Positions 23,196 to 41,230 of a stretch of DNA of 64,000 nt are shown piece by piece. The stretch lies in IMG/VR virus record IMGVR_UViG_3300008453_000627. One strand, written 5' to 3'. The notes beneath the pieces are model-generated. The model searched no databases and was not told the DNA's origin. It saw nothing but the letters and a program-made list of their open reading frames with translations. The translations under genes and the position numbers were made by a program. This DNA is from a virus. Each line of letters starts with the position of its first letter. Position 1 is the first letter of the stretch.

Positions 23196-24020
23196 TTACT
23201 TACCAACGTTTACATTAGTGCCTGCACCAATCACCAAAGTGTTACCCTTGAATGTTGCAATAGCCTTAGCTGTCTCAAGAGCCGCATCGGCTTGCTTCAT
23301 ACGAGCCTGTGCATCCATGTACTGAATAGCGCCTGCGTTTTGTGCAAGAGCCGCAATTCGTCGGGCTTCTGCTTCGGCAGTCTTAACTTCAATTTCTTTC
23401 TGCTTGAGTTCATTCTTTGAACGAACCAATTCGTTAGCACTTGCTACAACTGAATCAGCAGGGACTACGTTACGAATCAACACTTGGCTGATAGTGATAC
23501 TACCGTCCAACTTTTCTTCAGCAAGATTTCGAATAACTTCTTCTTTGATAAAGTTCTCCATATCGCTACGATTGTCAGCCATATCCAATGCCTCGTACTT
23601 ACGAGCTGCCTTGTAGATAGCGTTACGAGAATTTTGAACAATGTAGTTATACATTACGTAGGTATCGCCTTTGAACTCAGCGTGGAAACTCTTGTTCTTA
23701 GTTGAATACAATTCGGACACTTGTTGTGGATTAATGTTATAAACAACTACAGCATCAAAGTCCTTCATTGTGCTGTTATCTTTGGCAACCGGAGTCATAT
23801 TCTCCAATGTTACATTGACATCCTTGATCGGAAAAGTCAATACATCGCCGATCAATACTTGATTGAACGAGCCAGGCAGCAACTCACCTGATTGAACTTG
23901 TTTGTCAAAGCCAACTCGAACTCCAACCTCACCAGTCTCAATTCGAGTACAAGCAGAAGTCAATGCAACTGCGCCAATAATCAAACTCAATTTAACAATA
24001 CGATTCATGTGTAACCTCAA
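23196..24020 (-). CDS. SPFH/band-7 (stomatin/prohibitin-like) lipoprotein
   Basis: lipobox LTSAC; ETGEVGVRVGF…SPFH-type N-domain; C-terminal Ala/Glu-rich coiled coil (KQKEIEVKTAEAEARRIAALAQNAG). Confidence 0.7.
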   Translation of the reverse strand: MRLHMNRIVKLSLIIGAVALTSACTRIETGEVGVRVGFDKQVQSGELLPGSFNQVLIGDVLTFPIKDVNVTLENMTPVAKDNSTMKDFDAVVVYNINPQQVSELYSTKNKSFHAEFKGDTYVMYNYIVQNSRNAIYKAARKYEALDMADNRSDMENFIKEEVIRNLAEEKLDGSITISQVLIRNVVPADSVVASANELVRSKNELKQKEIEVKTAEAEARRIAALAQNAGAIQYMDAQARMKQADAALETAKAIATFKGNTLVIGAGTNVNVGK

Positions 24021-27431: not shown

Positions 27432-27460
27432 ATTATAGCGTCATTCACAGAAATAGTCAA
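27432..27460 (-). promoter_or_regulatory. sigma70-like promoter for rIIA (TTGACT-N17-TATAAT on the minus strand)
   Basis: minus strand reads ttgactatttctgtgaatgacgctataatagatacatag…, the same leader as the early cassettes. Confidence 0.5.
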
Positions 27461-27467: not shown

Positions 27468-27914
27468 TTAACCAAAACTGAACATTCCGTTGCCAAATGT
27501 TTCCACTTCTTTAAATGTATAATCATATGTTAATGCATTATGTTGTACAATGTTTTTTTCAACAATTGGCCTAAGATGCTCTTGTCCGCACAACAATCTT
27601 TCACGGCATAGATCCACGTTATCCTGCATCATATCAACACCAAAGATGGAGCTCAGGGCTTGCTCAAATGTTGAACCATTTTCAATCTTTCTAATCAATA
27701 CTTCGCTAAGAAACTGTCCGTCACCGCAACTGTTATCTATAAAAGATTTATTTGGATCTGTAAACACTTCTTGCGGGAACTCGTCCAATATAACCATAAC
27801 CAATTTAGTAGGAGTAAACACTTCTTGAGTAGCTTTCACTCGAAGTTTGTTACGATCTACTCCGCTCATATACTCACGGTTACGACAGTGTGCAATTACT
27901 TGTTCTAAAGTCAT
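27468..27914 (-). CDS. MTase-like protein carrying only the AdoMet-binding half (motifs X, I, II; no catalytic motif IV)
   Basis: EVFTPTKLV (motif X FxTP) … DNSCGDGQFL (motif I) … IFGVDMMQDNVDL (motif II-like); ends before any (D/N)PPY; ATGA-coupled to the upstream MTase gene. Confidence 0.55.
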   Translation of the reverse strand: MTLEQVIAHCRNREYMSGVDRNKLRVKATQEVFTPTKLVMVILDEFPQEVFTDPNKSFIDNSCGDGQFLSEVLIRKIENGSTFEQALSSIFGVDMMQDNVDLCRERLLCGQEHLRPIVEKNIVQHNALTYDYTFKEVETFGNGMFSFG

Positions 27915-29002
27915 TTGAATGAGTCCTCAATTGTTTTGATTTGTTTCTTTGTCAAGTTAAAGATTTTGTAAAGATCCTGATCTGTAAAAGTCTTGTCAAT
28001 AACAATCTTTGGAACCCAAGTAATTTGCGGATTGTCAAGAGTTGTGCTAGTTCTAGTTCTCTGTAAAATCCAAGAGACTAGTTTACTATGCCAAAAGCTT
28101 TTATACCAAATTAGTGCTTGCTCTGCTTCTGCTTGTGTAGCAAACTCAGCAAAGACTCTATAACCTGTTTGACTTTTATAGTTAGGCTCCATAACTTTGA
28201 GTTGATTCAAAGGAATGATTTCAAAGTTTTCTTTACGATACGAAGTCATAATTCGCCAAGCATTTGTATTGCCTTTGCCGCCTCCGTGAGTTTTCCAAGG
28301 AGTAGTTGGCTTGAGCTTGTGCAGAATACTCAACTCGTCAGGATTGACAGTATACAAAATTGTTTTGTCAAAATCTAAAATATCAGTTTTATAGCCTGTG
28401 TCGCTGTCAATTAGTTCAATTTTACCGACATGACCTTTTCTACAAAAAACTGTGCAGGTTTTAACTTTGGCAGTTTCAAATGTATCATAGGGATTAATTA
28501 CAATTTTGTAAACACCTAGTTTCTTTAAACTGGCTCGCACACTCTTACCTAACTTGTTGTCAGGTTGTGTAAACCAATTTGCTTGAATAACAAAGAATGT
28601 AAATTCGGGAGGATTCGTTGCAAACTGCTCTAAGAATAATTGATAGATTGGATTTCGGCCGGCTGACCCATCATTGTAAGGAGGGTTACCAACTGCAATG
28701 TTTACATTCATAGTAAGTTGATCTGCCAAGGCTTGTACTTGATACTTGCCTTTTAATTTTCTTTTATTTATTGCATAATCTACTGCTATAGAATCTTCTT
28801 CAAATCCTCTTACTCGTTTGGCAATGTCTTTGTCCTTCACACCAAGTTTAGACATACGTTGTTCAATTGCACTGACAATTTGACCTCCAGCAATAGCAGG
28901 ATCATGAATAGTAACTGTTGGATCTATTAGCATGTTAACTGGAATCTCATTGGTTATTAGTTCTGTAATAAAGTGCATACCAAACTTCAATCGATCTCTC
29001 AT
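27911..29002 (-). CDS. N6-adenine (amino) DNA methyltransferase, gamma-class TaqI-like, with degenerate AdoMet-binding motif
   Basis: NIAVGNPPYNDGSAGRNPIYQLFLEQF (motif IV NPPY plus downstream block similar to M.TaqI GNPPYGIVGEASKYPIHVF); N-terminal IHDPAIAGGQIV looks like a decayed motif I. Confidence 0.65.
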   Translation of the reverse strand: MRDRLKFGMHFITELITNEIPVNMLIDPTVTIHDPAIAGGQIVSAIEQRMSKLGVKDKDIAKRVRGFEEDSIAVDYAINKRKLKGKYQVQALADQLTMNVNIAVGNPPYNDGSAGRNPIYQLFLEQFATNPPEFTFFVIQANWFTQPDNKLGKSVRASLKKLGVYKIVINPYDTFETAKVKTCTVFCRKGHVGKIELIDSDTGYKTDILDFDKTILYTVNPDELSILHKLKPTTPWKTHGGGKGNTNAWRIMTSYRKENFEIIPLNQLKVMEPNYKSQTGYRVFAEFATQAEAEQALIWYKSFWHSKLVSWILQRTRTSTTLDNPQITWVPKIVIDKTFTDQDLYKIFNLTKKQIKTIEDSFK

Positions 29003-31236
29003 GACTTGTCTTTCTCTAAGAGACGTACCATATTTGTGTTGATAATGTTGCGCTCAAAAAGATCATTGATAATCTCAAAGTCAATTCCAAAGTGCTTTCT
29101 CACTTCTTGTTGTTTGATTTTGTCTTTGCTGATCTTCTCAATTGCTTCTTGTATTGTAACAGAATTCGAGCCGTATGTCAAGATGTCAAGATTCTCAACC
29201 AAAGTGGTAATCATCTTTTTGGCTTCGGCTAGCGTTTTGATAGGTGCAGTTGCCTTTGATGTTGATCCATTAGAGGAAGCTTGTCCATTTCTAGTTTTAC
29301 CAACTGCGGCCGCGGCTGTTTTGGCAGCTTTGTAGACATCAGCATTGCCAGCAGCCAGTGCTTGGATTTCGGCTGCTGTCAATTTGGATAGGTCACTGAT
29401 CTTACCAATTACACGACTTAACCGTCCGTTTTCGATTAGTTGTTCAAGATACTCATCTCTAAAGATTTTGACAGAGCCATCCGCAGTGCATCGGAAGATG
29501 TCCAAAGTTTTAAGAACTTCTGCAAGAGCTTGCCTAATATCTTTGTCATGTCGCTTTTGATAGTTCTCAGCTGTGATTAATACTAGGTCGTCAAACTTGT
29601 CATCCCTGTTAGGGTCAAAGCTAAGACTAACAATGCGTCCAATTTTGCTTTCGGTATGCGGAGTAAGTGCTCTGCTGATCTTTTGGATAGTAGCTCCTGC
29701 ATCACCTGCATCATAAGCCAAATACAATTCTGTAATCTCTCCAACTGAGAAACTACGTTGTGCCATACCTGCACTTAGAATAAGAACATTTTGATTGTTG
29801 CGTTTGGCTTTATCAATTTCTTCTTTGACTTTAGATTCTGCTGTACGATTTTCCATTTCATCGCCAGACACTGTGACAATGCTGTAACCTTTTAGCGCAT
29901 CTTTAGCCATTTTACTAACTGTAGCAAGATCACCGTTGGCAATGCCCATGCTTCCAGGAAGGAACATCATAGCAACACGTTGATCAGGTACTTCATTAGT
30001 CTGTAGATCAATATTCAAATTGTCTAGTCCGTGCTTCCCTTCAAAGACTGACTGTAAGATGTTAACCCAAAGACCTTTAGCTTTAATAGGCTTGGCTGCA
30101 AATTTACTCCAGCTGGCCAGCTCTTCTCTGTTGAGGTTTGGATTTTGTTCTAGTGTTAGATCAACAGCGGATTTCAAATCCATCTGATACAATTCAATAT
30201 CAACAACTAAGTTATGTCGCTTAGGGTCTACTTTAAAATGCTTTAGTCTAGTAGCAGTGTCTTTGCTTTTAAGTTTCTTTTCAATAACTAGTTCTGGATA
30301 CGTTACGCTCAAGAAGTGATCAGGCACCCAAGTGCTGACTGCCTTGTCACTGTTAGTGCCAGTCATAAGAAACAGTACATCGTCCAGATCTATTGCATTT
30401 TGCAAAGGCAATACTTGTCCTTGTTGATGAACTCCATAGTCTGCTTCATCAACAATGATCAATCGTTGTTGTGTCTGTGCAAACAAAAAGTCGATCTTTT
30501 CCTGGCGGCGGCCGCCGGCACACATACTTAAAAAGGCAACCACTTGTTTGTTTTGAGCAAGTGCCGAAGACACTACTTCTTGATAGTCTGGATCAGCAGT
30601 ATCGATAAGCACGTAGTCTTTAAACTGTTCAAATCCACTTAGGTCTTTTTCAAAGCTTGTAAAGCTAGTTAGCACATAGCTGACAACCACTGTGAGTTTG
30701 ATTTCAGTTTCTTTGATCAAGACCCCTGAAAAGATTGTCTTTCCAAAACGAGCGCACAGTTCAGCTAAGAATATGCGGTCTCCCAATTTAATTTTATCTA
30801 AGGTCTCTTCAGCTGCCGATGCTTGATTCCGTGTCAAGCCAACAAGAGGCAAAGGTTGATCAGACTTCTTTAGAAAACTGTCAACTCGTAGCTTAACTTC
30901 ACTAGCCGACAGTTCATGGATTTCTCCAGTGCTGCCTTTTCTAAAACCAATGTATGGTCTAATATAGTCATCCATACGACTACGTTGGTAATATCGATTT
31001 ACCTTCTTAGCTAGTTCTGTTACATCCCAAATAGTTACTAATTGGATAGTACCGTCTGAGATCAAATCTTTCCTAACGCCTAAAGAACTTTTAATGCGTT
31101 TCCAAACTTCTTTCTCAGGATCTTGGTCGCTAAAGACCCAACGCTCTCCAAACTTGCACTCGTCAGGCTTGTCTTTTTCATACCAAAGGTAGCAGTACAT
31201 GCGATCCATTTTATTCTCCTGACTCTTCTTGTTCAA
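28999..31236 (-). CDS. SF2 helicase-like ATPase (Walker A LCARFGKT, DEAD box IIVDEADYG) with an uncharacterised ~150-aa N-terminal domain
   Basis: 745 aa; motif I AELCARFGKT, motif II VDEAD, TGT motif III-like; N-terminal YCYLWYEKDK…DDYIRPYIGF…GEIHELSASEVK could be a nuclease-type domain. Confidence 0.55.
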   Translation of the reverse strand: MNKKSQENKMDRMYCYLWYEKDKPDECKFGERWVFSDQDPEKEVWKRIKSSLGVRKDLISDGTIQLVTIWDVTELAKKVNRYYQRSRMDDYIRPYIGFRKGSTGEIHELSASEVKLRVDSFLKKSDQPLPLVGLTRNQASAAEETLDKIKLGDRIFLAELCARFGKTIFSGVLIKETEIKLTVVVSYVLTSFTSFEKDLSGFEQFKDYVLIDTADPDYQEVVSSALAQNKQVVAFLSMCAGGRRQEKIDFLFAQTQQRLIIVDEADYGVHQQGQVLPLQNAIDLDDVLFLMTGTNSDKAVSTWVPDHFLSVTYPELVIEKKLKSKDTATRLKHFKVDPKRHNLVVDIELYQMDLKSAVDLTLEQNPNLNREELASWSKFAAKPIKAKGLWVNILQSVFEGKHGLDNLNIDLQTNEVPDQRVAMMFLPGSMGIANGDLATVSKMAKDALKGYSIVTVSGDEMENRTAESKVKEEIDKAKRNNQNVLILSAGMAQRSFSVGEITELYLAYDAGDAGATIQKISRALTPHTESKIGRIVSLSFDPNRDDKFDDLVLITAENYQKRHDKDIRQALAEVLKTLDIFRCTADGSVKIFRDEYLEQLIENGRLSRVIGKISDLSKLTAAEIQALAAGNADVYKAAKTAAAAVGKTRNGQASSNGSTSKATAPIKTLAEAKKMITTLVENLDILTYGSNSVTIQEAIEKISKDKIKQQEVRKHFGIDFEIINDLFERNIINTNMVRLLEKDKS

Positions 31237-31424
31237 GTTTAAAGCATTCAGCTTCAGTTATTGTGTCAAAAGGATCCGATTGATAAGCACAATTTCCAAA
31301 CGGATCATTGAAGTAAACGTAATACTTGCCGTTGTCTTCTCGAATTTTAAGCTCATCCATACAGTGTCCTTTTCTGTGTATATGCTATTATACAAGAAAA
31401 AACAATATATGTCAAGTATTGATG

Positions 31425-32189
31425 TTAGAAACCCAAATGCACTTTTTCGTTTATGTTTGGATCAAAATCTTTAACAATACGTTTTATTATATCGTATTGT
31501 TCTCCAGGATTTTGTTTTTGATTTAAGTTTTGGGCGATCTTATCGTTGAGCCCTAGCAACCTCTGCTCCATATCGCCTAGTTCAAAGCCAAACTTAGATT
31601 TAAGATCGGAGTTGAATAAATGCAGATGTGCTTTAATATCTCCATGTCCATCATGACATGTATGATTAAAGTTTGTGTTGACGTTAAATGGAAATTTTCC
31701 AATTACTGGAAGATTGTTCCTGTAAAGGTTTTCAAATTCTGGTAGTTGGTCTGATGCTTCATAACCAAAGTCTGGACTAGCTTGGTAGTCATAGAATGTA
31801 AACTGATAACCAATATTAAACATTCTATTAGCTGATATAATAGCTGTAGAATTTTTAACAATGTCGTTATTCCAGTGCCAGTGTTTGTTAATAAAAGATT
31901 TATCGAATCTAGGATTATTAAAAACACTGCCTCCATCGCCCCATGCTGTAGTGAATCTATCTTCTCTAGTCCAAGTGCTCCATTGCACTAGAATCAAATC
32001 TCGATCCGTAAATTTGTTCTTTAAATCGCACTCTAGCATTTTGTGCATTATAGCAACATTGCCAATGCCTTCTTTGCCCCAGTTGTAAACAGGAGGAGCA
32101 TTCTTACAGTAACCTACTATGTCAGCCCATGTAGGCCATTTGTATTTTGTAAAACTGCAACCAAAAATAAAGATTCTATCGTAATTCAT
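31425..32189 (-). CDS. SGNH/GDSL-like hydrolase paralogue (GCS variant)
   Basis: N-terminal IFIFGCSFTKYKWPTWADIVGY resembles GDSL block I with Cys replacing Asp; paralogous to 50493..51398. Confidence 0.45.
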   Translation of the reverse strand: MNYDRIFIFGCSFTKYKWPTWADIVGYCKNAPPVYNWGKEGIGNVAIMHKMLECDLKNKFTDRDLILVQWSTWTREDRFTTAWGDGGSVFNNPRFDKSFINKHWHWNNDIVKNSTAIISANRMFNIGYQFTFYDYQASPDFGYEASDQLPEFENLYRNNLPVIGKFPFNVNTNFNHTCHDGHGDIKAHLHLFNSDLKSKFGFELGDMEQRLLGLNDKIAQNLNQKQNPGEQYDIIKRIVKDFDPNINEKVHLGF

Positions 32190-33857: not shown

Positions 33858-34100
33858 TCACTTCTTAGCTGGAGCTGCGTCAGCAGGCTTTTTGTCGTCC
33901 TTTTTAGCGGGAGCGGCTTTGGCTTCGCTTTTAGTGTCTGCTTTGGCAGCAGGTGCGCTGGGTGCAGGAGTACTAGCAGCTGGAGCCGGTGCAGTAACAG
34001 CAGGCTTAGCTTCCACTTTCTTTTCTTCTTTCTTAGCTGGTGCTTGAGCAAAAGCAGTAGCGGCAAACATAGTAGCGATTAAAGTTGCGATCAATTTCAT
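33858..34100 (-). CDS. secreted Ala/Lys/Pro-rich low-complexity protein
   Basis: signal peptide MKLIATLIATMFAATAFA then AP/AKK repeats; the overlapping 130-aa ORF 33674..34066 is mostly the alternate frame of this low-complexity DNA. Confidence 0.5.
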   Translation of the reverse strand: MKLIATLIATMFAATAFAQAPAKKEEKKVEAKPAVTAPAPAASTPAPSAPAAKADTKSEAKAAPAKKDDKKPADAAPAKK

Positions 34101-34183: not shown

Positions 34184-35188
34184 TTATTTAATTTGTGTCC
34201 AAACACGTTCACGTATTTGCTTTGTTAGTGCATCCGGTAATGGAACATAGTCTAAATCTATGGCATCCTTTTTACCATTCTTAAATGCCCAATCAAAGAA
34301 CTTTAATACTTCATCGCTAGTGGCTTTGTTTTTTGGCTCTTTGTACATAATGATAAAACTTGCTGAACTGACAGGCCAGGCATTAGGATTCTTTTGATCC
34401 ACAATACTCAATCCCATACCCGGAATACTGAACCAATCAGCACCATCGGCTGCGGCAGCAAATGTTAAATCATCTGGACTTACATACTTGCCTGCTTTGT
34501 TTTGTAGCTGTAGAAACACCATGTTGTTCTTTTTAACATAGGCATACTCTACATAGCCAATTGATCCTTTGATACGGTTCACGTTGGCTGCAACACCCTC
34601 ATTGCCCTTGCCACCTACTGAATTGGCAGCTGGCCATTTGACTGCGGCACCGCGACCCACACGGGCCAACCATTCAGGGCTTACTGTGCTTAGATAGTCT
34701 GTCCAGTTGAATGTAGTGCCACTTCCATCAGCACGATGCACAATGGTGATTTCAGTGTTGGGCAAGGCCTTGCCCGGGTTTAATGCTGTTAATTTTGGGT
34801 CATTCCAACGGGAAATCGTGCCCATAAACACTTCAGCCATTACAGGCCCTGTGATGCGTAGTTCTCCGGGCTTGATGCCGTCTAGATTGATCACGGGCAC
34901 TGTGCCGCCTATGATTGCGGGGAACTGCACTTGGCCTTGCTTATCTAAGTTCTCGCCACTTACGGGTGCATCTGTAGCGCCAAAGTCCACTGTGCGAGCA
35001 TTGATTTGACGTATGCCGCCCGATGATCCAATTGATTGATAGTTTAGTGTTCGGCCAGTAGCGTTCTTGTATCCTTCGGCCCATTTAGAATAAACGGGGA
35101 ATGGAAAGGTAGCACCCGCACCCACCATGTCCGTAGCACCAGCTGTGATGGCCACAGAGGCCAGTAACATTGACAGTAATCGTTTCAT
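34184..35188 (-). CDS. pstS: phosphate ABC transporter substrate-binding protein PstS
   Basis: signal peptide; GAGATFPFPVYSKWAEGYKNATG…LNYQSIGSSGGIRQI…DFGATDAP matches the PstS phosphate-binding signature. Confidence 0.85.
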   Translation of the reverse strand: MKRLLSMLLASVAITAGATDMVGAGATFPFPVYSKWAEGYKNATGRTLNYQSIGSSGGIRQINARTVDFGATDAPVSGENLDKQGQVQFPAIIGGTVPVINLDGIKPGELRITGPVMAEVFMGTISRWNDPKLTALNPGKALPNTEITIVHRADGSGTTFNWTDYLSTVSPEWLARVGRGAAVKWPAANSVGGKGNEGVAANVNRIKGSIGYVEYAYVKKNNMVFLQLQNKAGKYVSPDDLTFAAAADGADWFSIPGMGLSIVDQKNPNAWPVSSASFIIMYKEPKNKATSDEVLKFFDWAFKNGKKDAIDLDYVPLPDALTKQIRERVWTQIK

Positions 35189-35866: not shown

Positions 35867-36168
35867 AGGCCCCGCTGCGCTATACTATATGATCTTGCTC
35901 AGGTATTCTACGTAGTGTAGGATCAATCATCAAAGCCCAAAACTCCATTGACTCGTGTATATAGAACCTAATGACTCCTGGAACAGCAGAAGAGCTCATC
36001 CAACCTAAAGGAGCAACAGCAGTCCATAACTGCTCTTGTGTAATAGAGTCAGCAGTAGATTCATAACAGCGTATATACATGCACGTATATATCAATTTTG
36101 GCTGTGTTAACGTATAGGCCCCGCTGTGCTCTAGTGTATATACTGGTATAGCTAAAGGCCCCGCTGCG
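35867..36168. repeat. 3 x AGGCCCCGCTG(C/T)G direct repeats each followed by TATA-rich sequence
   Basis: copies at 35867-35879, 36116-36128, 36156-36168. Confidence 0.5.
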
Positions 36169-36234
36169 GATATGTATACGTGTATTGACTGTATATAGAT
36201 AGATGCGCTAGGGTGAGGCACAGTAAAGAGGCTG

Positions 36235-36339
36235 TGTGGATAACCCCTGAGAGGCCTGTGGATAACTGTAGAATAATTGTCGAGGCCTGTGTAAAGACTG
36301 TTGATAACTGTAGAAAAACTGTGTATAGACTGTGGATAA
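36235..36339. promoter_or_regulatory. cluster of DnaA-box-like 9-mers (TGTGGATAA = complement of TTATCCACA), putative replication origin element
   Basis: TGTGGATAA at 36235-36243, 36257-36265, 36331-36339 and TGTTGATAA at 36299-36307, all same orientation within 105 bp of non-coding DNA. Confidence 0.5.
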
Positions 36340-36502
36340 CTTTGAAAATTATTGATTTTTATTCAGAGTATTTTAACTATGCCTGTCTGCCCCTCACTGT
36401 AAAAAAAATTTTCTACTGTATAGCGGCCGCAGACCTGCCTGAAAATGGCGCATAATCCTGATTCTGTTGCACTTTTTTGCACTTTATCACACTGTGACCT
36501 TA

Positions 36503-36616
36503 CTGTATATACTGTGTGACTCTACTGGTCTGATATATACTGTATATACACTGTGTACGTCTTAGCTCTATACACTAGCAGTACGGTGTCAGAGTGTGTT
36601 AGACTCTTGTATATAC
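36503..36616. repeat. 3 x (c)TGTATATAC(A)CTG iteron-like direct repeats
   Basis: copies starting 36503, 36540, 36608; more TGTATATAC-like palindromes at 36136-36200. Confidence 0.45.
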
Positions 36617-36638
36617 ACTGCACTACCGGGAGATCACT

Positions 36639-36854
36639 ATGCATGACTTTAATCTACTAGCACACTTTCGATATCCTACACACTTTGCCTATGTATTTCA
36701 GCATGAACTATCAGGTCAAATACACTGTTTAAAATACAATCAGCGATCAATAGACTGGACCTACTATGCATATGAGCAGTGGGATCAATGTAAAGAATAT
36801 ATGATCGAGGCATTACCCCAGGGAGTTTGGGGATTTACTCCTGATTCAGAATAA
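36639..36854 (+). CDS. hypothetical protein
   Basis: 71 aa; GGGAGA SD; first + strand ORF after the strand switch. Confidence 0.45.
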   Translation: MHDFNLLAHFRYPTHFAYVFQHELSGQIHCLKYNQRSIDWTYYAYEQWDQCKEYMIEALPQGVWGFTPDSE

Positions 36855-36858
36855 AAAG

Positions 36859-36904
36859 TTATTCACAAAGTTATACACAATAGCTGTTGATAACCTGTGG
36901 ATAA
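36859..36904. promoter_or_regulatory. second DnaA-box-like cluster (convergent TTATTCACA, TTATACACA / TGTTGATAA, TGTGGATAA)
   Basis: boxes at 36859-36867, 36871-36879 (forward) and 36885-36893, 36896-36904 (reverse). Confidence 0.4.
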
Positions 36905-37178
36905 CTTTCTGAGATTTCAGCAGGGGTCAGCCAGCCATTGTGGTAATACTTTTGTGTTAAGGTAAAACCTTTCGCGCACCCTCGCCGTCCATCCCGCTTT
37001 ATAGTGCTTCGAACCTTTCTTGTTCAGCTGTGCTGTTTTCTTATTATGCATTAATTATAGCACCGTTTGGCTCAACCGTCAACCGGTAACCCTATAACCC
37101 TTAAGGGCTTTGGGTCTTTGATTGCGCTGTGAGCCAAAAGACAGTACAATATACACTTAAACAGCAAAAAGGAACACA

Positions 37179-37430
37179 ATGCAAAACGTATACACTGCAA
37201 ACACTGCAAAAGCTAAACTTGTGTTTAACAAACAAAAAGAAACGTATACTATTGTTATAGCTTTTAACGTTACAGAAACTAACGCAAACGGCAAACTAAA
37301 GTTTCCGCCTCGTGCTAAATGCGACTTTGTTAGCGGAGAATTTGTATACGAAAGTTTGCAAGCAGACAAAGAACGTATACTTTCAGTTGCACACAAGCAA
37401 CTGCGTACAGATTTAATAGAATTTGTTTAA
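37179..37430 (+). CDS. hypothetical early protein
   Basis: 83 aa; promoter-like TTGATT…TACAAT upstream; terminator hairpin downstream. Confidence 0.5.
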   Translation: MQNVYTANTAKAKLVFNKQKETYTIVIAFNVTETNANGKLKFPPRAKCDFVSGEFVYESLQADKERILSVAHKQLRTDLIEFV

Positions 37431-37435
37431 TTTAA

Positions 37436-37460
37436 CCCTACAGCCTGTAAGGGCTTTTTA
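37436..37460 (+). terminator. rho-independent terminator
   Basis: CCCTACAGcctGTAAGGG hairpin followed by CTTTTTAT. Confidence 0.5.
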
Positions 37461-37468
37461 TAGCGCAT

Positions 37469-37497
37469 TTGACACTGTAGCCAAAATGCGTTATAAT
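37469..37497 (+). promoter_or_regulatory. early promoter cassette (TTGACA-N17-TATAAT)
   Basis: ttgacactgtagccaaaatgcgttataat. Confidence 0.55.
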
Positions 37498-37520
37498 AAG
37501 TTTTTAACAAGGAGCACAGT

Positions 37521-37673
37521 ATGCAAGACGCTATTAGCACAAAAGATAAACTAACTAGTTTAATGTTGCAAATGCAAGACATTATTATGCAAGATTATGA
37601 GGATAATGTGGATATACAAGATGCATTTAATGCATTAGCAAGTGCTTTTGATTATTATATAGATGAAGAATAA
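37521..37673 (+). CDS. small acidic protein (50 aa)
   Basis: MQDAISTKDKLTSLMLQMQDIIMQDYEDN…; AAGGAG SD; below the ORF-track cutoff. Confidence 0.4.
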   Translation: MQDAISTKDKLTSLMLQMQDIIMQDYEDNVDIQDAFNALASAFDYYIDEE

Positions 37674-37691
37674 TATTATATAATAACAAAG

Positions 37692-37714
37692 ACCCTGCGA
37701 TGTGTAGGGTCTTT
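37692..37714 (+). terminator. terminator-like hairpin
   Basis: ACCCTgcgatgtgtAGGGT then TCTTT. Confidence 0.4.
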
Positions 37715-37716
37715 AG

Positions 37717-37745
37717 TTGACAAGCTAGCCAAAAGGCGCTATAAT
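37717..37745 (+). promoter_or_regulatory. early promoter cassette
   Basis: ttgacaagctagccaaaaggcgctataat. Confidence 0.55.
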
Positions 37746-37775
37746 AGAAGCTTAAACAGTAACAAGGAGCTGATC

Positions 37776-38036
37776 ATGGCAAAAGGACTTTTTCAATTCA
37801 TCGGTGTGTCGCGTCATCCCAATGGTGAAGTGGCGGTTCGTTACGCTAACGATGCAGGTCGTGTGCGTGTGCTGGCTCGCAATGGTCACACTGACATTGA
37901 GTTTATCGAGCTTGAGCGAGCAGAACATGTTGAAGAAGCAATGTCTGCACTGATGGACTTTGTTGAAGACAACGAGCGTATCGATCTGTTGGATGTAGTG
38001 TTCAACGAAGCAGAACGTGTTGGCTTTACTTTTTAA
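37776..38036 (+). CDS. hypothetical protein, paralogue of 44133..44507
   Basis: FIGVSRHPNGEVAVRYANDAGRVRVLARNGHTDIEFIEL vs VVGTSKLNGEMKVRFANDVMRVKVLAKHGHTDINLIEL. Confidence 0.55.
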   Translation: MAKGLFQFIGVSRHPNGEVAVRYANDAGRVRVLARNGHTDIEFIELERAEHVEEAMSALMDFVEDNERIDLLDVVFNEAERVGFTF

Positions 38037-38045
38037 GGAGACTGT

Positions 38046-38396
38046 ATGCGATACTATGACGAGATTGGCTCTTTTGAGCGGGACGGGTTCTTTATCATCG
38101 TAGACAAGAGCTATGAGGACATTGATCCCTGGGACCAGCTTTCAGAGTGTTTTGATGACAGAAAGCAACTGTACGCAGACATTGAGCGTGGCAAGTACGA
38201 TTGGTTCATGTTGCGTGTTCGTGCTATGCTAGACGGGCACGAGCTGGGCTGCTCTTACTTGGGCGGTTGCTTGTACGAAGACGCTCGCGAAGTGCTGACA
38301 GATGGCACTGTTGAAGATCAGCTGATCGAAGTGTTGTTCGAAGCTCGCCAAGAAGTTAAACGATTACGGGAGAAGTTTGATGCGATTGCCCTTTAA
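38046..38396 (+). CDS. hypothetical acidic protein
   Basis: 116 aa, coupled to upstream gene. Confidence 0.5.
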   Translation: MRYYDEIGSFERDGFFIIVDKSYEDIDPWDQLSECFDDRKQLYADIERGKYDWFMLRVRAMLDGHELGCSYLGGCLYEDAREVLTDGTVEDQLIEVLFEARQEVKRLREKFDAIAL

Positions 38397-38613
38397 TGAA
38401 GTACTACAGTGGGCAGGCACTGCCTGCTTCATGGTTATGTATACAACTATGAGCTTCTTCAAAGAACTGCATACACTGCAATTAATTGCCGGATGCATGG
38501 GCGGAGCACTGTTTTTGGTGTGGTCGTTGCGTGTTGCAAATAAACAACAGACCATTGTTAACGTTACCGGAGTAACCATTACGCTCATAGGGTTATATAA
38601 AGCACTTGGTTGA
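38377..38613 (+). CDS. small membrane protein
   Basis: 78 aa, two hydrophobic segments, overlapping start. Confidence 0.45.
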   Translation: MMRLPFNEVLQWAGTACFMVMYTTMSFFKELHTLQLIAGCMGGALFLVWSLRVANKQQTIVNVTGVTITLIGLYKALG

Positions 38614-38638
38614 CACCCTAGCCAAAAGGTCGTATAAT
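38610..38638 (+). promoter_or_regulatory. early promoter cassette
   Basis: ttgacaccctagccaaaaggtcgtataat + acatacatagacaacaaaggagc leader. Confidence 0.55.
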
Positions 38639-38665
38639 ACATACATAGACAACAAAGGAGCTGAT

Positions 38666-38899
38666 ATGCGCGATTACACTGTGAAGCTGTTGGAAATGAT
38701 GGACGAGGGCTTGATCTCTGCAGAAGCTGTGGCAGAGATGGCTTTGGCCTACATGAGCGAAGATGACGTCAAAGACATGGTGCGAAGCAACGATCTTATG
38801 CCTTGGATGGAAAACGACGAAGAGGATGAAGACGAAGAGGAAGAGTGGACTCCGGACAATGCGGACTTCAACGATCCAGGTTCACGCCATCACTATTAA
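38666..38899 (+). CDS. hypothetical acidic protein
   Basis: ORF-track start 38606 is a TTG inside the promoter; the first ATG after the SD is 38666 (MRDYTVKLL…). Confidence 0.5.
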   Translation: MRDYTVKLLEMMDEGLISAEAVAEMALAYMSEDDVKDMVRSNDLMPWMENDEEDEDEEEEWTPDNADFNDPGSRHHY

Positions 38900-38908
38900 G
38901 GAGCGACT

Positions 38909-39190
38909 ATGAAACAAGACTACACACTGTATATCTACAAGGCAGACAAGCGGTGTAAGGCAGGTGAGCGCCTGTTCTCTACAACTGTTTGGACTGGCAC
39001 TGACGACAACGGTATGCGCCGAACTGTGGCAGAGCTGTTTGATCTCTATCCGCCCAGCAAGGGTTGGCGCTTTGATTGGACTCCCAGCATGAAGACTGTT
39101 CGCAACTTAATGTCGGGCAAAGAGATCCAGATCCCGCATGACACACCTCGTTCATGCGATCCTTCAAGCGAACTCTATTGGACCATGTGA
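38909..39190 (+). CDS. hypothetical protein
   Basis: 93 aa, AAGGAG SD. Confidence 0.5.
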   Translation: MKQDYTLYIYKADKRCKAGERLFSTTVWTGTDDNGMRRTVAELFDLYPPSKGWRFDWTPSMKTVRNLMSGKEIQIPHDTPRSCDPSSELYWTM

Positions 39191-39354
39191 TGAAGAACGA
39201 GATTGAAAGATTGAACTTTGTCATCTGGGCTAAGGATCGTTTCCCGGGCTTTACTACAGATTCTAAGCAATACGCCAAAGCCAATCGGGCCTGGCGGGCT
39301 GTGGCTCGTAAAGACCCTATGGTTGACAAGGTTATCAAAACCTGCTATAATTAA
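39190..39354 (+). CDS. hypothetical protein (54 aa)
   Basis: ATGA-type overlap at 39190 (MKNEIERLNF…); track start 39154 overlaps previous gene. Confidence 0.4.
   Translation: MKNEIERLNFVIWAKDRFPGFTTDSKQYAKANRAWRAVARKDPMVDKVIKTCYN
39323..39351 (+). promoter_or_regulatory. early promoter cassette embedded in the 3' end of the preceding ORF
   Basis: ttgacaaggttatcaaaacctgctataat. Confidence 0.5.
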
Positions 39355-39381
39355 GGCTTAAACAGTAACAAGGAGCGATAG

Positions 39382-39648
39382 ATGAAAGCACTACAAGAGT
39401 TCATTGCACAGAAGAATCACTGGAACAGCTTCTTCAACGGCGAGCAGTATGAGATTCGCACTGCCAAAGGTCGTCAGCGTGTCGCAGACATGATTGATGC
39501 GGCCCTTAGTCCTGAGAACTTGACCTGCGATGGGGAACTTCCTCGCGCAGAGGTCAATCGGAGATATAAGGAGCTGATGACTGCGGCCAAGCAGTTGAAG
39601 AAGCTGGACCCTGCCGTTACATTCTACGAATACGAAACGGAGATCTAA
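39382..39648 (+). CDS. hypothetical protein
   Basis: 88 aa. Confidence 0.5.
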   Translation: MKALQEFIAQKNHWNSFFNGEQYEIRTAKGRQRVADMIDAALSPENLTCDGELPRAEVNRRYKELMTAAKQLKKLDPAVTFYEYETEI

Positions 39649-39649
39649 G

Positions 39650-39856
39650 ATGAAAGCCTATGTAACAACTATCCTCCGTCAGGAGTTGGAGGTGCCCGAA
39701 GGCACTACACGAGAAGAGATCTATGACTTCTTTGGCGAGTTCCAATCGTTTAGAACTGCGTTCCAAGGTGTTAGCGGCAATGGTATTACCATTGTTGACT
39801 TGATGGTCTTAGAGGAAGAAGTAACAGAACTTGGAGAGGAGAGCTTCGATGTCTAG
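39650..39856 (+). CDS. hypothetical acidic protein
   Basis: 68 aa. Confidence 0.5.
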   Translation: MKAYVTTILRQELEVPEGTTREEIYDFFGEFQSFRTAFQGVSGNGITIVDLMVLEEEVTELGEESFDV

Positions 39857-39992
39857 ACAAGAGCTTGTTGATCTTGTCTTGGAGCAGATTGCTCAAGACG
39901 TAAAGAACGCAGACTTTACAGCTATTGAAGAGCTGTTACACTTTGTGCCAGAGTCTAACCTTAAATCATACTTGTCAGAAGGACCATACTAA
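39849..39992 (+). CDS. small protein (47 aa)
   Basis: MSRQELVDLVLEQIAQDVKNADFTAIEELLHF…; overlaps both neighbours by coupled start/stops. Confidence 0.4.
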   Translation: MSRQELVDLVLEQIAQDVKNADFTAIEELLHFVPESNLKSYLSEGPY

Positions 39993-39993
39993 T

Positions 39994-40560
39994 ATGCCAA
40001 ACTGGTGTAACAACAGCGTAGAGATCTACCACGATGACCCTAAGATGATTGAGCGGGTGCGAACTGCGTTCAATGGTGAAGGCCTGCTACAAGAGTTCAT
40101 TCCTGTACCAGAAGACCTGCGTAATATCGTAGCAGGATCAGTTCCTGTTGCAGAAGAAGCAGAACACAAACTCAAAGAAGAGTTCAACCGTATCACATAT
40201 GGTTACACTAACTGGTATGACTTCTGTGTCAACGAGTGGGGCACTAAGTGGGAGATTGGTGCTGATGGTAACCCTGCACAGGACATCCCAGGCGGATTGC
40301 TATTGGGCTTTGAATCAGCTTGGGCTCCTCCTTGTGCAGCCTATGAGAAGCTGACAGCTATGGGTTTCCGTATTAAGGCTATGTATTTTGAGCCAGGTAT
40401 GGCATTTGCAGGCATTTGGGAAGACGGTTTCGATGACTACTACGAGTATGGTGGCATGGACTCTACTCAGATTGCCGAGGCGTTGCCTCCAGAGTTAGAC
40501 GAAGCATTTGGTATCTCAGAAGATGTAGCACAGTGGGAAGAAGAGAACAAGGAAGACTAA
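39994..40560 (+). CDS. hypothetical protein with MPNWC N-terminus (possibly DUF1281-like)
   Basis: start placed at ATG 39994 (TAATATG coupling), MPNWCNNSVEIYHDDPKMIERV…. Confidence 0.45.
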   Translation: MPNWCNNSVEIYHDDPKMIERVRTAFNGEGLLQEFIPVPEDLRNIVAGSVPVAEEAEHKLKEEFNRITYGYTNWYDFCVNEWGTKWEIGADGNPAQDIPGGLLLGFESAWAPPCAAYEKLTAMGFRIKAMYFEPGMAFAGIWEDGFDDYYEYGGMDSTQIAEALPPELDEAFGISEDVAQWEEENKED

Positions 40561-40576
40561 TACTTTTTGCTTACAA

Positions 40577-40607
40577 AAACCCGCCGATTGTGCGGGTTTC
40601 TCATTTG
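40577..40607 (+). terminator. rho-independent terminator
   Basis: AAACCCGCcgattgtGCGGGTTT then CTCATTT. Confidence 0.5.
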
Positions 40608-40616
40608 TGCTATAAT
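40588..40616 (+). promoter_or_regulatory. weak-35 promoter (TTGTGC-N17-TATAAT) overlapping the terminator
   Basis: tataat 40611-40616 + acatgcttacacaacgcaataggagc leader. Confidence 0.4.
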
Positions 40617-40646
40617 ACATGCTTACACAACGCAATAGGAGCAAAC

Positions 40647-40994
40647 ATGCAAGCAGTCATTTTTAACACAGCAGGGGACGGCTACTGGAGCCGCACTGCA
40701 AAAGCAGTAGAGATAGTTGACATGCGGATGGGCTATGTTAGCGACGACAAAGAGTTTGGAGAGCTGTGCGTGTATTTTAACACAGCAGATTGGGACGTTA
40801 ATGTAGACGGTCTCATTTATACAGACAGTGAGTTTTTACACGAGCTGAACGCATTTTTAGTTGAGCAGGGCTTGTGTGCTGTAACATATAGCGAGCAGGG
40901 TATGCAGGGCGACAACTATGTGTCGCTAGACGTTGAAGACGAGTTTATTGCACTGTGGGAAGCTAAGTTTAACACAGTACTGGAGGCAATGTAA
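40647..40994 (+). CDS. hypothetical protein
   Basis: start at ATG 40647 after SD (MQAVIFNTAGDGYW…); track start 40533 is upstream of the promoter. Confidence 0.5.
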   Translation: MQAVIFNTAGDGYWSRTAKAVEIVDMRMGYVSDDKEFGELCVYFNTADWDVNVDGLIYTDSEFLHELNAFLVEQGLCAVTYSEQGMQGDNYVSLDVEDEFIALWEAKFNTVLEAM

Positions 40995-41230
40995 TGATTA
41001 CAGCAGACAAGCTAGCCCTACTGACTAACATGCCTGCGGTGATGTTGACAACAGGCATACAGGCTGCAGGCTACAAGAAGGACAAGTTCACAAAGAGCAA
41101 GTTCCTGGGCATAACCAATGCCGGCCTGTTCTGCTACACTGCTACCTACATTGAAGACAATGCAGAGCAGGAGTGCAAAGTCTTTGTCAAGTATGACCCT
41201 ACAGCGGATAGGGTTTCGGTTGACTACTGA
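40994..41230 (+). CDS. hypothetical protein
   Basis: 78 aa, TAATG overlap. Confidence 0.5.
   Translation: MITADKLALLTNMPAVMLTTGIQAAGYKKDKFTKSKFLGITNAGLFCYTATYIEDNAEQECKVFVKYDPTADRVSVDY

What the first reader, a model, noticed from the sequence alone, without database searches (positions are those of the whole stretch)
27468..31236. Helicase-like ATPase plus a split/duplicated N6-adenine methyltransferase next to rIIA
Three co-directional, translationally coupled genes sit immediately upstream of rIIA on the minus strand. (1) A 745-aa SF2-type ATPase (LCARFGKT, VDEAD) has an unassigned N-terminal domain whose D…EIHELSASEVK spacing could be a PD-(D/E)xK nuclease. (2) A 363-aa gamma-class MTase has a canonical NPPY catalytic motif but a decayed AdoMet motif I (IHDPAIAGGQIV). 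(3) A 148-aa protein carries textbook motifs X (FTP), I (CGDGQFL) and II but stops before any catalytic motif. The two MTase ORFs are joined by an ATGA overlap, so the AdoMet-binding and catalytic functions appear to be partitioned across two polypeptides, or a duplicated half is decaying. A helicase/nuclease plus adenine MTase pairing resembles Type I/III/ISP restriction-modification logic, or an anti-restriction self-methylation module. I do not recall this arrangement from T4.
Basis: partly seen in the sequence, partly recalled or inferred. Interest (0 to 1): 0.7.

Follow-up and report, generated by a model that had tools for sequence, protein, structure and literature searches.

The report
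Translocase-coupled adenine methylase with detached cofactor-binding subunit
Next to rIIA this T4-like phage carries an early operon for a DNA-motor protein, a complete adenine DNA methylase and a highly conserved stand-alone "half methylase"; related phages use the same small protein as the missing half of a truly two-piece methylase.

Summary
Three minus-strand genes are joined by ATGA overlaps, sit behind a perfect sigma-70-type promoter and lie upstream of rIIA. All three are under strong purifying selection (dN/dS 0.04-0.10), so nothing here is decaying.

- **745-aa ORF.** It probably starts at ATG 31209 (736 aa). It is an SF2 ATPase whose model resembles Snf2/Rad54 and restriction-enzyme translocases. 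It has a family-restricted N-terminal domain of unknown fold.
- **363-aa protein.** It models at pLDDT 93.5 as a complete gamma-class N6-adenine DNA methylase. Its "decayed" motif I has the same pattern as that of active M.TaqI.
- **148-aa protein.** It is the most conserved part (>6000 stand-alone relatives). In 31 of 32 distinct related loci its gene directly follows the large-subunit gene.

Sister lineages have a large subunit that starts at NPPY with no AdoMet half. This includes cyanophage P-SSM2 genes 036/037. Aeromonas phage 65 has the two parts fused in permuted order. The helicase partner appears only with long large subunits, and in some lineages it is fused to them.

Best reading: a DarB-like methylase-helicase dyad plus a detachable AdoMet-binding subunit, used for anti-restriction self-methylation. 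A restriction-like role is not excluded.

The parts
31387..31415 (-). Sigma-70-type (T4 early-like) promoter of the operon, TTGACA-17-TATAAT
   Evidence: 12 of 12 consensus match. Strong promoter-like sites lie at the equivalent place upstream of the helicase gene in relatives L052, L016 and L018. Function is inferred, not shown.
28999..31209 (-). SF2 ATPase/translocase-like protein (736 aa from ATG 31209; the maximal ORF reaches TTG 31236)
30841..31209 (-). N-terminal domain of the ATPase (about 120 aa), family-specific, fold class unresolved
   Evidence: Invariant in 57 sequences: Y16 W18 E26 K28 G30 W70 D89 D90 R93 H107; D71 in 56 of 57 (745-aa numbering). Model topology is beta-beta-alpha-beta-alpha. 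Only 143 proteins among 1.84 billion representatives carry it; nearly all listed matches lie at or near the N-terminus of this helicase family, its split N-halves or helicase-methylase fusions. No hit in Pfam, PADLOC, PHROGs or PDB. hhalign against the I-TevI GIY-YIG domain gave probability 0.07%.
29596..30837 (-). Two RecA-like ATPase lobes (Walker A ARFGKT, motif II DEAD, motif III TGT, motif VI QK..R)
   Evidence: The motif residues are invariant in alignment A1. Secondary structure comes from the model.
29153..29181 (-). Internal promoter-like site TTGACA-17-TACAAT (TG-extended), about 150 nt upstream of the methylase start
   Evidence: 11 of 12 match. Both hexamers are kept in L052, L016 and L017 and nearly so in L018 (TTGACT), while the spacer varies. 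It lies in conserved coding sequence, so this may only reflect protein constraint.
27911..29002 (-). Large methylase subunit (363 aa): complete gamma-class N6-adenine DNA methyltransferase with a C-terminal target-recognition region
   Evidence: AF2 pLDDT 93.5, pTM 0.90, with strands beta1-beta7 of the class I fold. Foldseek PDB matches: CamA E 2e-12 (TM about 0.6), M.BseCI, M.TaqI, HsdM, BpuSI, BrxX. Pfam Eco57I 19.7 bits, below the 25.3 cut-off; many homologues carry PF07669. dN/dS 0.07.
28712..29002 (-). N-half of the large subunit (residues 1-97): its own motifs X, I (IHDPAIAGGQIV), II (VRGFEE) and III (LADQL)
   Evidence: It is a paralogue of the small protein: the small-protein HMM hits the equivalent region of relatives (L024 E 2e-9). 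It models with block-mean pLDDT mostly 94-98 (77 for residues 1-10, 82 for 91-100), packed against the catalytic half. Motif I has the same pattern as M.TaqI's LEPACAHGPFL. It is the least conserved part across loci (22% mean identity). It is absent or replaced in other lineages. Locally it is under purifying selection (dN/dS 0.10).
28676..28687 (-). Catalytic motif IV, NPPY (residues 106-109)
   Evidence: N106 is invariant and P107, P108 and Y109 are nearly invariant in the family. A few relatives have NLPF instead.
27468..27914 (-). Small subunit (148 aa): free-standing AdoMet-binding half of a gamma-class methylase (motifs X, I, II, III only)
   Evidence: phrog_4376 E 8e-20, and it matches the C-terminus of phrog_11371. 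It aligns to M.BseCI residues 11-107, E 0.002. More than 6378 homologues; the top 120 are 146-187 aa and at least 69% identical. In 31 of 32 distinct loci its gene directly follows the large-subunit gene, with a gap of -94 to +9 nt. Mean pairwise identity 62%, against 48% for the catalytic half. dN/dS 0.09.
27432..27460 (-). Separate promoter of rIIA (TTGACT-17-TATAAT); marks the 3' boundary of the operon
   Evidence: 11 of 12 match. It is conserved in L052.

Best explanation
This is an early-expressed phage operon for a motor-coupled DNA adenine methyltransferase. It is a gene-neighbourhood form of the DarB-type methylase-helicase dyad.

**Proposed roles**
- The 736-aa SF2 ATPase translocates on double-stranded DNA.
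- The 363-aa protein is a TaqI/EcoKI-like (gamma-class) N6-adenine methylase with its own target-recognition region.
- The 148-aa protein is an AdoMet-binding half-domain that binds the catalytic half of the large subunit.

**How the two-piece enzyme arises**
- In the minimal relatives (large subunit of 261-270 aa, starting at NPPY) the small protein supplies strands beta1-beta3 in trans. The Rossmann fold is then assembled from two polypeptides whose genes lie in permuted order: catalytic half first, cofactor half second.
- The window shows the fuller state. The large subunit still carries its own N-terminal cofactor half, and that extra half occurs only where the helicase partner is present.
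- Three states exist: N'-C followed by N (window), C followed by N (short forms) and C-N fused (Aeromonas phage 65). They look like stages of circular permutation by duplication.

**Likely purpose**
Rapid methylation of phage DNA early in infection, to escape host restriction.

**Shown**
- The folds, motifs and gene order.
- Conservation, purifying selection and the existence of fused and split variants.

**Inferred**
- That the proteins bind each other.
- That the substrate is DNA.
- That the motor aids methylation.
- That the purpose is anti-restriction.
For: - **Large subunit is a DNA methylase.** The fold is complete and confident, and the best matches are DNA adenine methylases.
- **Small subunit is the N-terminal half of such an enzyme.** Its cofactor motifs are invariant.
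- **The pairing is near-universal.** In 31 of 32 distinct loci the small gene follows the large one, overlapping or abutting.
- **Short forms depend on the small protein.** Short large subunits start at NPPY (MIPHAAIGNPPY, MLNAVWTCNPPY) and still carry the small partner. The same holds in P-SSM2 036/037, S-CAM7 75/76 and S-SKS1 215/214.
- **A fused permuted form exists.** Aeromonas phage 65 p301 and ZPAH1 orf67 have NPPY at residues 12-13 and the small-like half at 283-385.
- **Helicase and methylase belong together.** The helicase gene is found directly upstream wherever enough upstream sequence is held for the long forms, and never upstream of short forms. The two are fused in L032, P0355, P0464 and viral proteins of 1138-1336 aa.
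- **The ATPase resembles dsDNA translocases**.
- **It is not the replication or recombination helicase.** The phage encodes a gp41-like and a UvsW-like helicase elsewhere.
- **All three genes are under purifying selection**.
- **A promoter is present upstream**.
- **Published precedent.** EcoKI/TaqI-like methylases are coupled to SWI2/SNF2-type ATPases in one polypeptide or as neighbours in phages and plasmids, with P1 DarB protecting DNA from type I restriction (PMC5512222). Permutation-by-duplication intermediates have been reported in DNA methylases (PMC3320104).
Against: - Contact between the small and large subunits is therefore inferred only from gene linkage and from the fused and short forms.
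- In the window the large subunit already has a complete fold. The canonical docking site for the small protein is occupied, and its role here is unclear.
- One lineage (L027/L028) has helicase plus a long large subunit and no adjacent small gene. The small protein is therefore not always required.
- Domain order is the reverse of DarB: helicase before methylase.
- The invariant charged residues of the N-terminal domain could form a nuclease site, which would point to a restriction-like role.
- No methylation data and no recognition sequence are available.
Confidence: 0.55

Rival explanations
1. It is a restriction-modification-like machine of Type ISP or Type III logic, split over three genes. 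The N-terminal domain of the ATPase would be a nuclease, the motor would deliver it along DNA, and the methylase would mark phage DNA as self. Unmethylated host or competitor DNA would then be cut.
For: - In fused relatives the domain order is N-domain, SF2 ATPase, gamma-class methylase, recognition region. This matches Type ISP enzymes.
- LlaBIII, SauUSI, EcoP15I Res and HsdR are among the structural matches.
- There are weak to passing ResIII Pfam hits.
- The N-domain has many invariant acidic, basic and His residues, including E/D20, E26-x-K28, D89, D90 and H107, plus the nearly invariant D71, on a beta-hairpin/alpha scaffold.
Against: - No nuclease family is detected by Pfam, PADLOC, PHROGs, PDB profiles or hhalign against a GIY-YIG domain.
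- Many relatives carry the methylase pair with no ATPase at all.
- The methylase-helicase dyad of P1 DarB works without a nuclease (PMC5512222).
Confidence: 0.2
2. In this long-form system the 148-aa protein is not part of the active site. It acts as an independent AdoMet-binding regulator or adaptor, for example tuning methylase activity, bridging the methylase to the motor, or pairing with another partner. The 363-aa enzyme would be self-sufficient.
For: - The large subunit models as a complete fold with TaqI-like motif I.
- L027/L028 lack an adjacent small gene.
- In ACG-2014f the small gene stands apart from the nearest methylase gene.
Against: - The small gene overlaps the large one in 31 of 32 distinct loci.
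- Its cofactor motifs are invariant.
- Short and fused forms show that the same domain does complete a methylase.
Confidence: 0.15
3. The methylase acts on RNA or protein rather than DNA. NPPY enzymes include rRNA and release-factor methylases, and the ATPase would then be an RNA helicase.
For: - NPPY is shared with HemK-type and RNA methylases (general knowledge).
Against: - All top structural matches of the large subunit are DNA adenine methylases, and they include the C-terminal recognition domain.
- The ATPase matches dsDNA translocases best.
- The Pfam family is Eco57I/N6_Mtase.
Confidence: 0.05
4. The 148-aa ORF, or the N-half of the 363-aa ORF, is a decaying duplicate or a frameshift artefact.
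For: The two are paralogous, and the N-half is the least conserved part across distant loci.
Against: - dN/dS is 0.09 for the small gene and 0.10 for the N-half.
- There are more than 6000 stand-alone homologues of constant length.
- The same stop/start overlap is present in independent assemblies.
Confidence: 0.02

Closest known systems
DNA methylase-helicase dyad of phages and plasmids; archetype P1 DarB (Iyer et al. 2017, PMC5512222)
   Same: An EcoKI/TaqI-like adenine methylase is coupled to an SF2 ATPase of Snf2-like structure. The coupling is by conserved neighbourhood here and by fusion in relatives. It is carried by a phage, and the proposed role is protection of phage DNA from restriction.
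   Different: The order is helicase then methylase, not methylase then helicase. It is not part of a giant polyvalent virion protein, and there is no LPD36 domain. It has an extra family-specific N-terminal domain and a third, small AdoMet-half subunit that DarB lacks. Sequence similarity to DarB was not tested.
Type ISP restriction-modification enzymes (LlaGI, LlaBIII)
   Different: No Mrr/PD-(D/E)xK nuclease is detectable. The proteins are separate here and about 400 aa shorter in total. A small extra subunit is present. The system is phage-encoded and early-expressed.
Gamma-class N6-adenine DNA methyltransferases (M.TaqI, M.BseCI, CamA; Pfam Eco57I/N6_Mtase)
   Same: The motif order X-I-II-III-IV is followed by a recognition domain. 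It has NPPY and a TaqI-like motif I. The fold match has TM about 0.6.
   Different: Sequence identity is only 10-15%, and the window protein scores below the Pfam cut-off. It is accompanied by a separate duplicate of the cofactor half. Sister forms lack the cofactor half altogether.
Circularly permuted (beta-order) amino-methyltransferases and the permutation-by-duplication model (Jeltsch 1999, as summarised in PMC3320104); permuted EcoKI-like Dam in jumbo phages (PMC7824862)
   Same: The fused relative in Aeromonas phage 65 has the order IV...recognition region...X-I-II-III. The window's N'-C followed by N is the predicted partly duplicated intermediate.
   Different: Here a stop codon separates the halves, so the permuted enzyme is made of two polypeptides.
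Naturally split C5-cytosine methyltransferase M.AquI (alpha and beta subunits; cited in PMC5944983)
   Same: One methyltransferase is built from two separately translated polypeptides.
   Different: M.AquI is a C5 enzyme split between motif VIII and the recognition domain. Here an amino-methylase is split between motifs III and IV, with permuted gene order.

Membership tests
Gamma-class N6-adenine DNA methyltransferase (TaqI/EcoKI-like) | Linear order of motifs X, I, II, III, IV-VIII, then the target-recognition domain | tested here: met
   For the 363-aa protein: motif X helix at residues 10-19, motif I at 31-42, motif II at 64-70, motif III around 92-96, NPPY at 106-109, and a C-terminal domain from about 190 to 363.
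Gamma-class N6-adenine DNA methyltransferase (TaqI/EcoKI-like) | Catalytic (D/N)PP(Y/F) motif IV | tested here: met
   NPPY is present. N106 is invariant and P107, P108 and Y109 are nearly invariant in 52 homologues.
Gamma-class N6-adenine DNA methyltransferase (TaqI/EcoKI-like) | AdoMet-binding motif I loop | tested here: met
   DPAIAGGQIV has the same P-A-x-A-x-G pattern as LEPACAHGPFL of active M.TaqI. Actual cofactor binding was not tested.
Gamma-class N6-adenine DNA methyltransferase (TaqI/EcoKI-like) | Score above the curated Pfam cut-off (Eco57I PF07669 or N6_Mtase PF02384) | tested here: not met
   The window protein scores 19.7 bits against a cut-off of 25.3. Many homologues, and the fusion P0464 (51 bits), do carry PF07669.
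Gamma-class N6-adenine DNA methyltransferase (TaqI/EcoKI-like) | Class I Rossmann-like methyltransferase fold matching solved DNA adenine methylases | tested here: met
   pLDDT 93.5. Matches: CamA E 2e-12, M.BseCI, M.TaqI, HsdM.
Gamma-class N6-adenine DNA methyltransferase (TaqI/EcoKI-like) | AdoMet-dependent methylation of adenine N6 in DNA | not testable with these tools
   This needs an enzyme assay or methylome sequencing.
Methylase-helicase dyad (DarB-like) | EcoKI/TaqI-like adenine methylase linked to an SF2 ATPase in one polypeptide or in a conserved neighbourhood of a mobile element | tested here: met
   Neighbourhood is conserved wherever upstream sequence is held for the long-form loci. 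Fusions occur in L032, P0355, P0464 and BFVD proteins.
Methylase-helicase dyad (DarB-like) | The ATPase belongs to the SWI2/SNF2 clade (helical inserts after strand 4 of lobe 1 and strand 1 of lobe 2) | tested here: inconclusive
Methylase-helicase dyad (DarB-like) | Methylase N-terminal to helicase, LPD36 domain, packaging into the virion | tested here: not met
   The order is reversed, with the helicase gene or domain first. LPD36 and packaging were not tested.
Type ISP restriction-modification enzyme | N-terminal Mrr-like PD-(D/E)xK nuclease | tested here: inconclusive
The N-domain has no detectable family. An invariant E26-x-K28 with E/D20 on a beta-hairpin leaves a nuclease possible.
Type ISP restriction-modification enzyme | Single polypeptide: nuclease, SF2 motor, gamma-class methylase, recognition domain | tested here: not met
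   There are three separate genes in the window. Single-chain versions, without a proven nuclease, exist in relatives.
Type III restriction-modification (Mod + Res) | Beta-class Mod methylase, and Res with a C-terminal PD-(D/E)xK nuclease | tested here: not met
   The methylase has gamma order. The C-terminal region of the ATPase is an all-helical bundle. Only the generic ResIII ATPase lobe matches, and weakly.
   E113 is E in 35 of 57 sequences and K115 is K in 21 of 57. The segment lies in a helix of the model.
GIY-YIG / T5orf172 nuclease (my own lead) | Sequence or profile similarity to GIY-YIG domains | tested here: not met
   Pfam scans of 17 members at E up to 10 gave nothing. hhalign against I-TevI residues 1-97 gave probability 0.07%. 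Only the beta-beta-alpha-beta-alpha topology resembles it.
Naturally split (two-polypeptide) methyltransferase | The two gene products together contain exactly one set of motifs X-VIII | tested here: not met
   The window's large subunit already has X-IV, so motifs X-III are present twice. The feature is met in short-form relatives (L008, L009, L013, L020, L022, L034, L037), P-SSM2 036/037 and S-CAM7 75/76.

The most novel reading that the evidence does not exclude
The 148-aa protein defines a large, previously unnamed family of free-standing AdoMet-binding subunits found in T4-like and jumbo phages, with more than 6000 sequences. These subunits complete catalytic methylase halves in trans. 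This would make naturally two-polypeptide, gene-order-permuted N6-adenine methylases common in aquatic phages. The window would capture a functional intermediate of circular permutation by duplication, in which the enzyme carries two cofactor-binding halves. One half may be dedicated to docking or regulating a DNA translocase, giving motor-gated methylation, or methylation plus cleavage if the orphan N-domain proves to be a new nuclease.
Probability: 0.35. Interest if true: 0.75.

Novelty: new variant of a known kind. Interest (0 to 1): 0.6.

Why it matters
**Evolution of permuted enzymes.** All stages of a long-standing model, circular permutation of DNA methyltransferases by duplication, can be seen side by side in living phages. 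These are the full enzyme plus an extra half, split halves in permuted order, and the fused permuted enzyme. Each stage is directly testable by complementation.

**Annotation.** Thousands of "hypothetical" 130-160 aa phage proteins, and their NPPY-first partners, would be re-annotated as halves of one methylase. This includes genes in the model cyanophages P-SSM2, S-CAM7 and S-SKS1. It affects predictions of phage methylomes and of resistance to host restriction.

**Mechanism.** The strict link between the long large subunit and a Snf2-like motor extends the DarB-type methylase-helicase theme to T4-like phages and, as fusions, to giant viruses. It also offers a small, separable system for asking what the motor contributes to methylation.

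**Possible new domain.** The orphan N-terminal domain, with 10 invariant and one nearly invariant residue, is a candidate new catalytic domain.

Tried and rejected
- **Near-identical DNA in 50,697 phage records:** none found.
- **Sequence searches of the 745-aa and 363-aa proteins and their profiles against PDB:** nothing useful.
- **NCBIfam:** only noise.
- **PADLOC:** only generic Type II methylase hits, for the small protein.
- **AlphaFold of a linker-joined large+small construct with a paired alignment:** Complementarity could not be modelled.
- **Profile of the small protein concatenated to the catalytic half, in gamma order, against PDB:** it matched M.BseCI only over the small part (residues 11-105). 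It did not run through the junction, so there is no sequence-level proof of colinearity.
- **GIY-YIG/T5orf172 idea for the N-domain:** no support from Pfam, PHROGs, PADLOC, PDB or hhalign.
not conserved.
- **afdb50 fold library:** unavailable.
- **Viral-contig scan with the single 363-aa protein:** found nothing. The profile found only 3 loci.
- **Literature searches for a described split amino-methylase or for this trio:** found only general reviews and C5 examples.
- **Rejected readings:** sequencing frameshift, pseudogene, and ordinary replication/recombination helicase. The phage encodes gp41-like and UvsW-like helicases elsewhere.

Full report
**1. What is in the sequence**

Three minus-strand ORFs occupy 27468-31236: 745 aa (from TTG), 363 aa and 148 aa. 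Both junctions are ATGA overlaps, where the stop of one gene shares bases with the start of the next.

rIIA (phrog_612, E 3e-129) and rIIB follow immediately downstream.

The first gene most likely starts at ATG 31209, giving 736 aa:
- an AGGAG lies 7 nt upstream of that ATG;
- homologues are 733-741 aa.

Promoter-like sites:
- A perfect TTGACA-17-TATAAT lies at 31415-31387. Equivalent sites sit upstream of the helicase gene in relatives.
- rIIA has its own site at 27460-27432.

So the trio looks like a separate early-type transcription unit. This is an inference from consensus matches only.

**2. The 736/745-aa protein**

Homologues and selection:
- It has 615 or more full-length homologues, none with a Pfam domain.
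- dN/dS is 0.04 against a close relative.

Structure:
- With a 57-sequence alignment AlphaFold gives pLDDT 83.9 and pTM 0.78. The model has an N-terminal alpha/beta domain of about 120 aa, two RecA-like lobes and a C-terminal helical bundle.
- Walker A, DEAD, TGT and motif VI residues are invariant.
- Pfam gives only a sub-threshold ResIII hit. Distant family members pass that threshold.

The phage encodes a gp41-like replicative helicase and a UvsW-like helicase elsewhere in the window. This protein is therefore not the ordinary replication or recombination helicase.

**3. The N-terminal domain**

- Y16, W18, E26, K28, G30, W70, D89, D90, R93 and H107 (745-aa numbering) are invariant in 57 sequences. 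D71 is D in 56 of 57.
E113 is E in 35 of 57 and K115 is K in 21 of 57. The segment lies in a helix of the model.
- A profile of the domain finds only 143 proteins among 1.84 billion representatives. Nearly all listed matches lie at or near the N-terminus of this helicase family, its split N-halves, or helicase-methylase fusions.
- It matches nothing in Pfam, PADLOC, PHROGs or PDB.
- My own GIY-YIG lead got no support.

The density of invariant charged residues suggests a catalytic or ligand-binding site. Its nature is unresolved.

**4. The 363-aa protein**

- With 52 sequences AlphaFold gives pLDDT 93.5 and pTM 0.90. The model is a complete class I methyltransferase sheet, including the N-terminal strands beta1-beta3.
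- Foldseek against PDB returns DNA adenine methylases: CamA (E 2e-12, TM about 0.6), M.BseCI, M.TaqI, HsdM, BpuSI and BrxX.
- The "decayed" motif I, HDPAIAGGQIV, has the same pattern as LEPACAHGPFL of active M.TaqI. I confirmed the M.TaqI sequence against the PDB entry.
- Motifs II (VRGFEE) and III (LADQL, compare TaqI's LADFL) are also present.

In this window the large protein is therefore a complete gamma-class enzyme on sequence and model evidence.

**5. The 148-aa protein**

- It aligns to residues 11-107 of M.BseCI, covering motifs X, I, II and III.
- It belongs to phrog_4376, and it matches the C-terminal third of the 383-aa phrog_11371.
- It has more than 6378 homologues. The best 120 are all 146-187 aa and at least 69% identical.
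- FTPT, CGDGQFL and GVD are invariant or nearly so.
- Across 21 loci the mean pairwise identity is 62% for the small protein, 48% for the catalytic half of the large subunit and 22% for the N-half of the large subunit.
- Against the close relative L052, dN/dS is 0.09 for the small gene, 0.10 for the N-half and 0.06 for the catalytic half.

Neither copy of the cofactor half is decaying.

**6. Comparative anatomy**

I collected about 50 loci from encoding-contig look-ups, viral and metagenome scans and annotated phage records. I scored them with HMMs of the three proteins.

Results:
- **(a) The small gene follows the large gene.** This holds in 31 of 32 distinct loci with enough sequence, with a gap of -94 to +9 nt. 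The exception is L027/L028.
- **(b) The large subunit comes in several forms.**
  - 355-407 aa with an N-half like the window's.
  - 326-341 aa with an unrelated N-terminus.
  - 373-392 aa with a different glycine-rich N-half.
  - 261-270 aa that begin a few residues before NPPY.
- **(c) The helicase tracks the long forms.** Short forms never have the helicase upstream. Long forms have it wherever enough upstream sequence is held. In L032 the helicase and large subunit are one 1140-aa protein, still followed by the small gene. Further fusions of 1120-1340 aa occur in metagenomes, in an uncultured Caudovirales phage and in Hokovirus.
- **(d) Known cyanophages carry the minimal pair, unannotated.**
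  - P-SSM2 036 (193 aa, MKFTLAIGNPPY...) plus the overlapping 037 (132 aa).
  - S-CAM7 75 (NFPF at residue 19) plus 76.
  - S-SKS1 215 plus 214.
  - S-CAM7 isolate 0809CC03 also has the full trio, with the helicase split in two.
- **(e) A fused permuted form exists.** Aeromonas phage 65 p301 and ZPAH1 orf67 (386 aa) have NPPY at residues 12-13 and the small-like X-I-II-III half at 283-385.

**7. Interpretation**

The short and fused forms make the parsimonious reading clear. The small protein is the beta1-beta3 cofactor half, and it pairs with the beta4-beta7 catalytic half. The break lies exactly between motifs III and IV, where the two halves of the sheet meet.

The three states are N'-C followed by N, C followed by N, and C-N fused. 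These are what the permutation-by-duplication model predicts. That model is said to have documented intermediates among DNA methyltransferases (PMC3320104, citing Jeltsch 1999).

Naturally split methylases are known for C5 enzymes such as M.AquI (PMC5944983). My searches found no described split amino-methylase. That is not proof of absence.

The link between an EcoKI/TaqI-like methylase and an Snf2-like ATPase in phages and plasmids is already described as the methylase-helicase dyad. P1 DarB is its anti-restriction archetype (PMC5512222). Permuted EcoKI-like Dam enzymes are noted in jumbo phages (PMC7824862).

The window is therefore a new variant of a known kind.

**8. What remains open**

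- In the window the large subunit already has its own cofactor half packed in the canonical place. How the small protein acts here is unknown. It may compete with the N-half, bind elsewhere or bridge to the motor.
- The strict co-occurrence of an N-terminal extension with the helicase suggests that the extension serves the motor partnership. This is inference.
- If the N-domain of the ATPase is a nuclease, the trio and its fusions would resemble a Type ISP enzyme. The operon could then attack unmethylated DNA. I give this 0.2.

**9. Verdict**

- Novelty: a new variant of a known kind.
- Interest: 0.6.

Noticed in passing
window 31425-32189 (254-aa ORF) and 31211-31360 (49-aa ORF), minus strand: Both ORFs lie between the AAA ATPase gene and the operon. 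They are absent from the otherwise syntenic close relative L052, where the AAA gene is followed directly by the promoter and helicase. The 254-aa protein has no Pfam or PHROG hit.
   Followed up: partly
L001 (S-CAM7), L014/L031, L023, L024/L025/L029, L028: The helicase homologue is split into two ORFs (about 280-340 aa plus about 415-465 aa) in several independent lineages. In L024 the halves are separated by about 370 nt. The break falls after the first RecA lobe.
   Followed up: no
L002 10251-11438 and L004 10228-11451 (335-343 kb jumbo-phage-like contigs): The large methylase subunit keeps the N-half and the small partner. Its catalytic/recognition half is replaced by a different sequence (GNPPYQDADDSGG..., GNFPFTESPGD...). 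This suggests swapping of specificity modules.
   Followed up: no
L027/L028: This is the only lineage found with a split helicase plus a long large subunit (350 aa, DPEIAGGQIV) but no small gene downstream. The next gene is an unrelated 240-aa ORF.
   Followed up: partly
L048 282-1994: An unusual order: a weak large-subunit-like ORF (321 aa), then a small-subunit gene, then the start of another large-subunit gene.
   Followed up: no
protein P0439 (4217 aa): A giant protein carries 16 repeated matches to part of the helicase N-domain (profile positions 23-67).
   Followed up: no
window 29153-29181, minus strand: A TG-extended TTGACA-17-TACAAT site lies inside the 3' part of the helicase gene. 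Its hexamers are kept in L052, L016 and L017 and nearly so in L018, despite saturated synonymous divergence. It could be an internal promoter for the methylase pair, or only a result of protein constraint.
   Followed up: partly
window 34184-35188 and 33858-34100, minus strand: A PstS-like phosphate-binding protein gene (judged by eye from the translation) lies next to an 80-aa Ala/Lys/Pro-rich ORF with a signal-peptide-like start. L002 also has a PBP_like_2 gene near its trio.
   Followed up: no
window 23196-24020, minus strand: An SPFH/Band 7 protein gene (Pfam E 1.5e-17) lies just downstream of rIIB. L052 has the same arrangement.
   Followed up: no
window 51379-54312 and 59476-60933, minus strand: A gp41-like DnaB-type helicase, a Nol-like carbamoyltransferase (auxiliary metabolic gene) and a UvsW-like helicase. 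They help place the window in a T4-like phage.
   Followed up: partly
window about 36000-50000: GC content rises to 45-47% and the GC and AT skews change sign. This is consistent with a block of plus-strand genes flanked by minus-strand blocks.
   Followed up: no
BFVD hits: Giant eukaryotic viruses (Hokovirus, 1324 aa) and an uncultured Caudovirales phage (1138 aa) carry single-chain fusions of a structurally similar helicase with an Eco57I-type adenine methylase.
   Followed up: no
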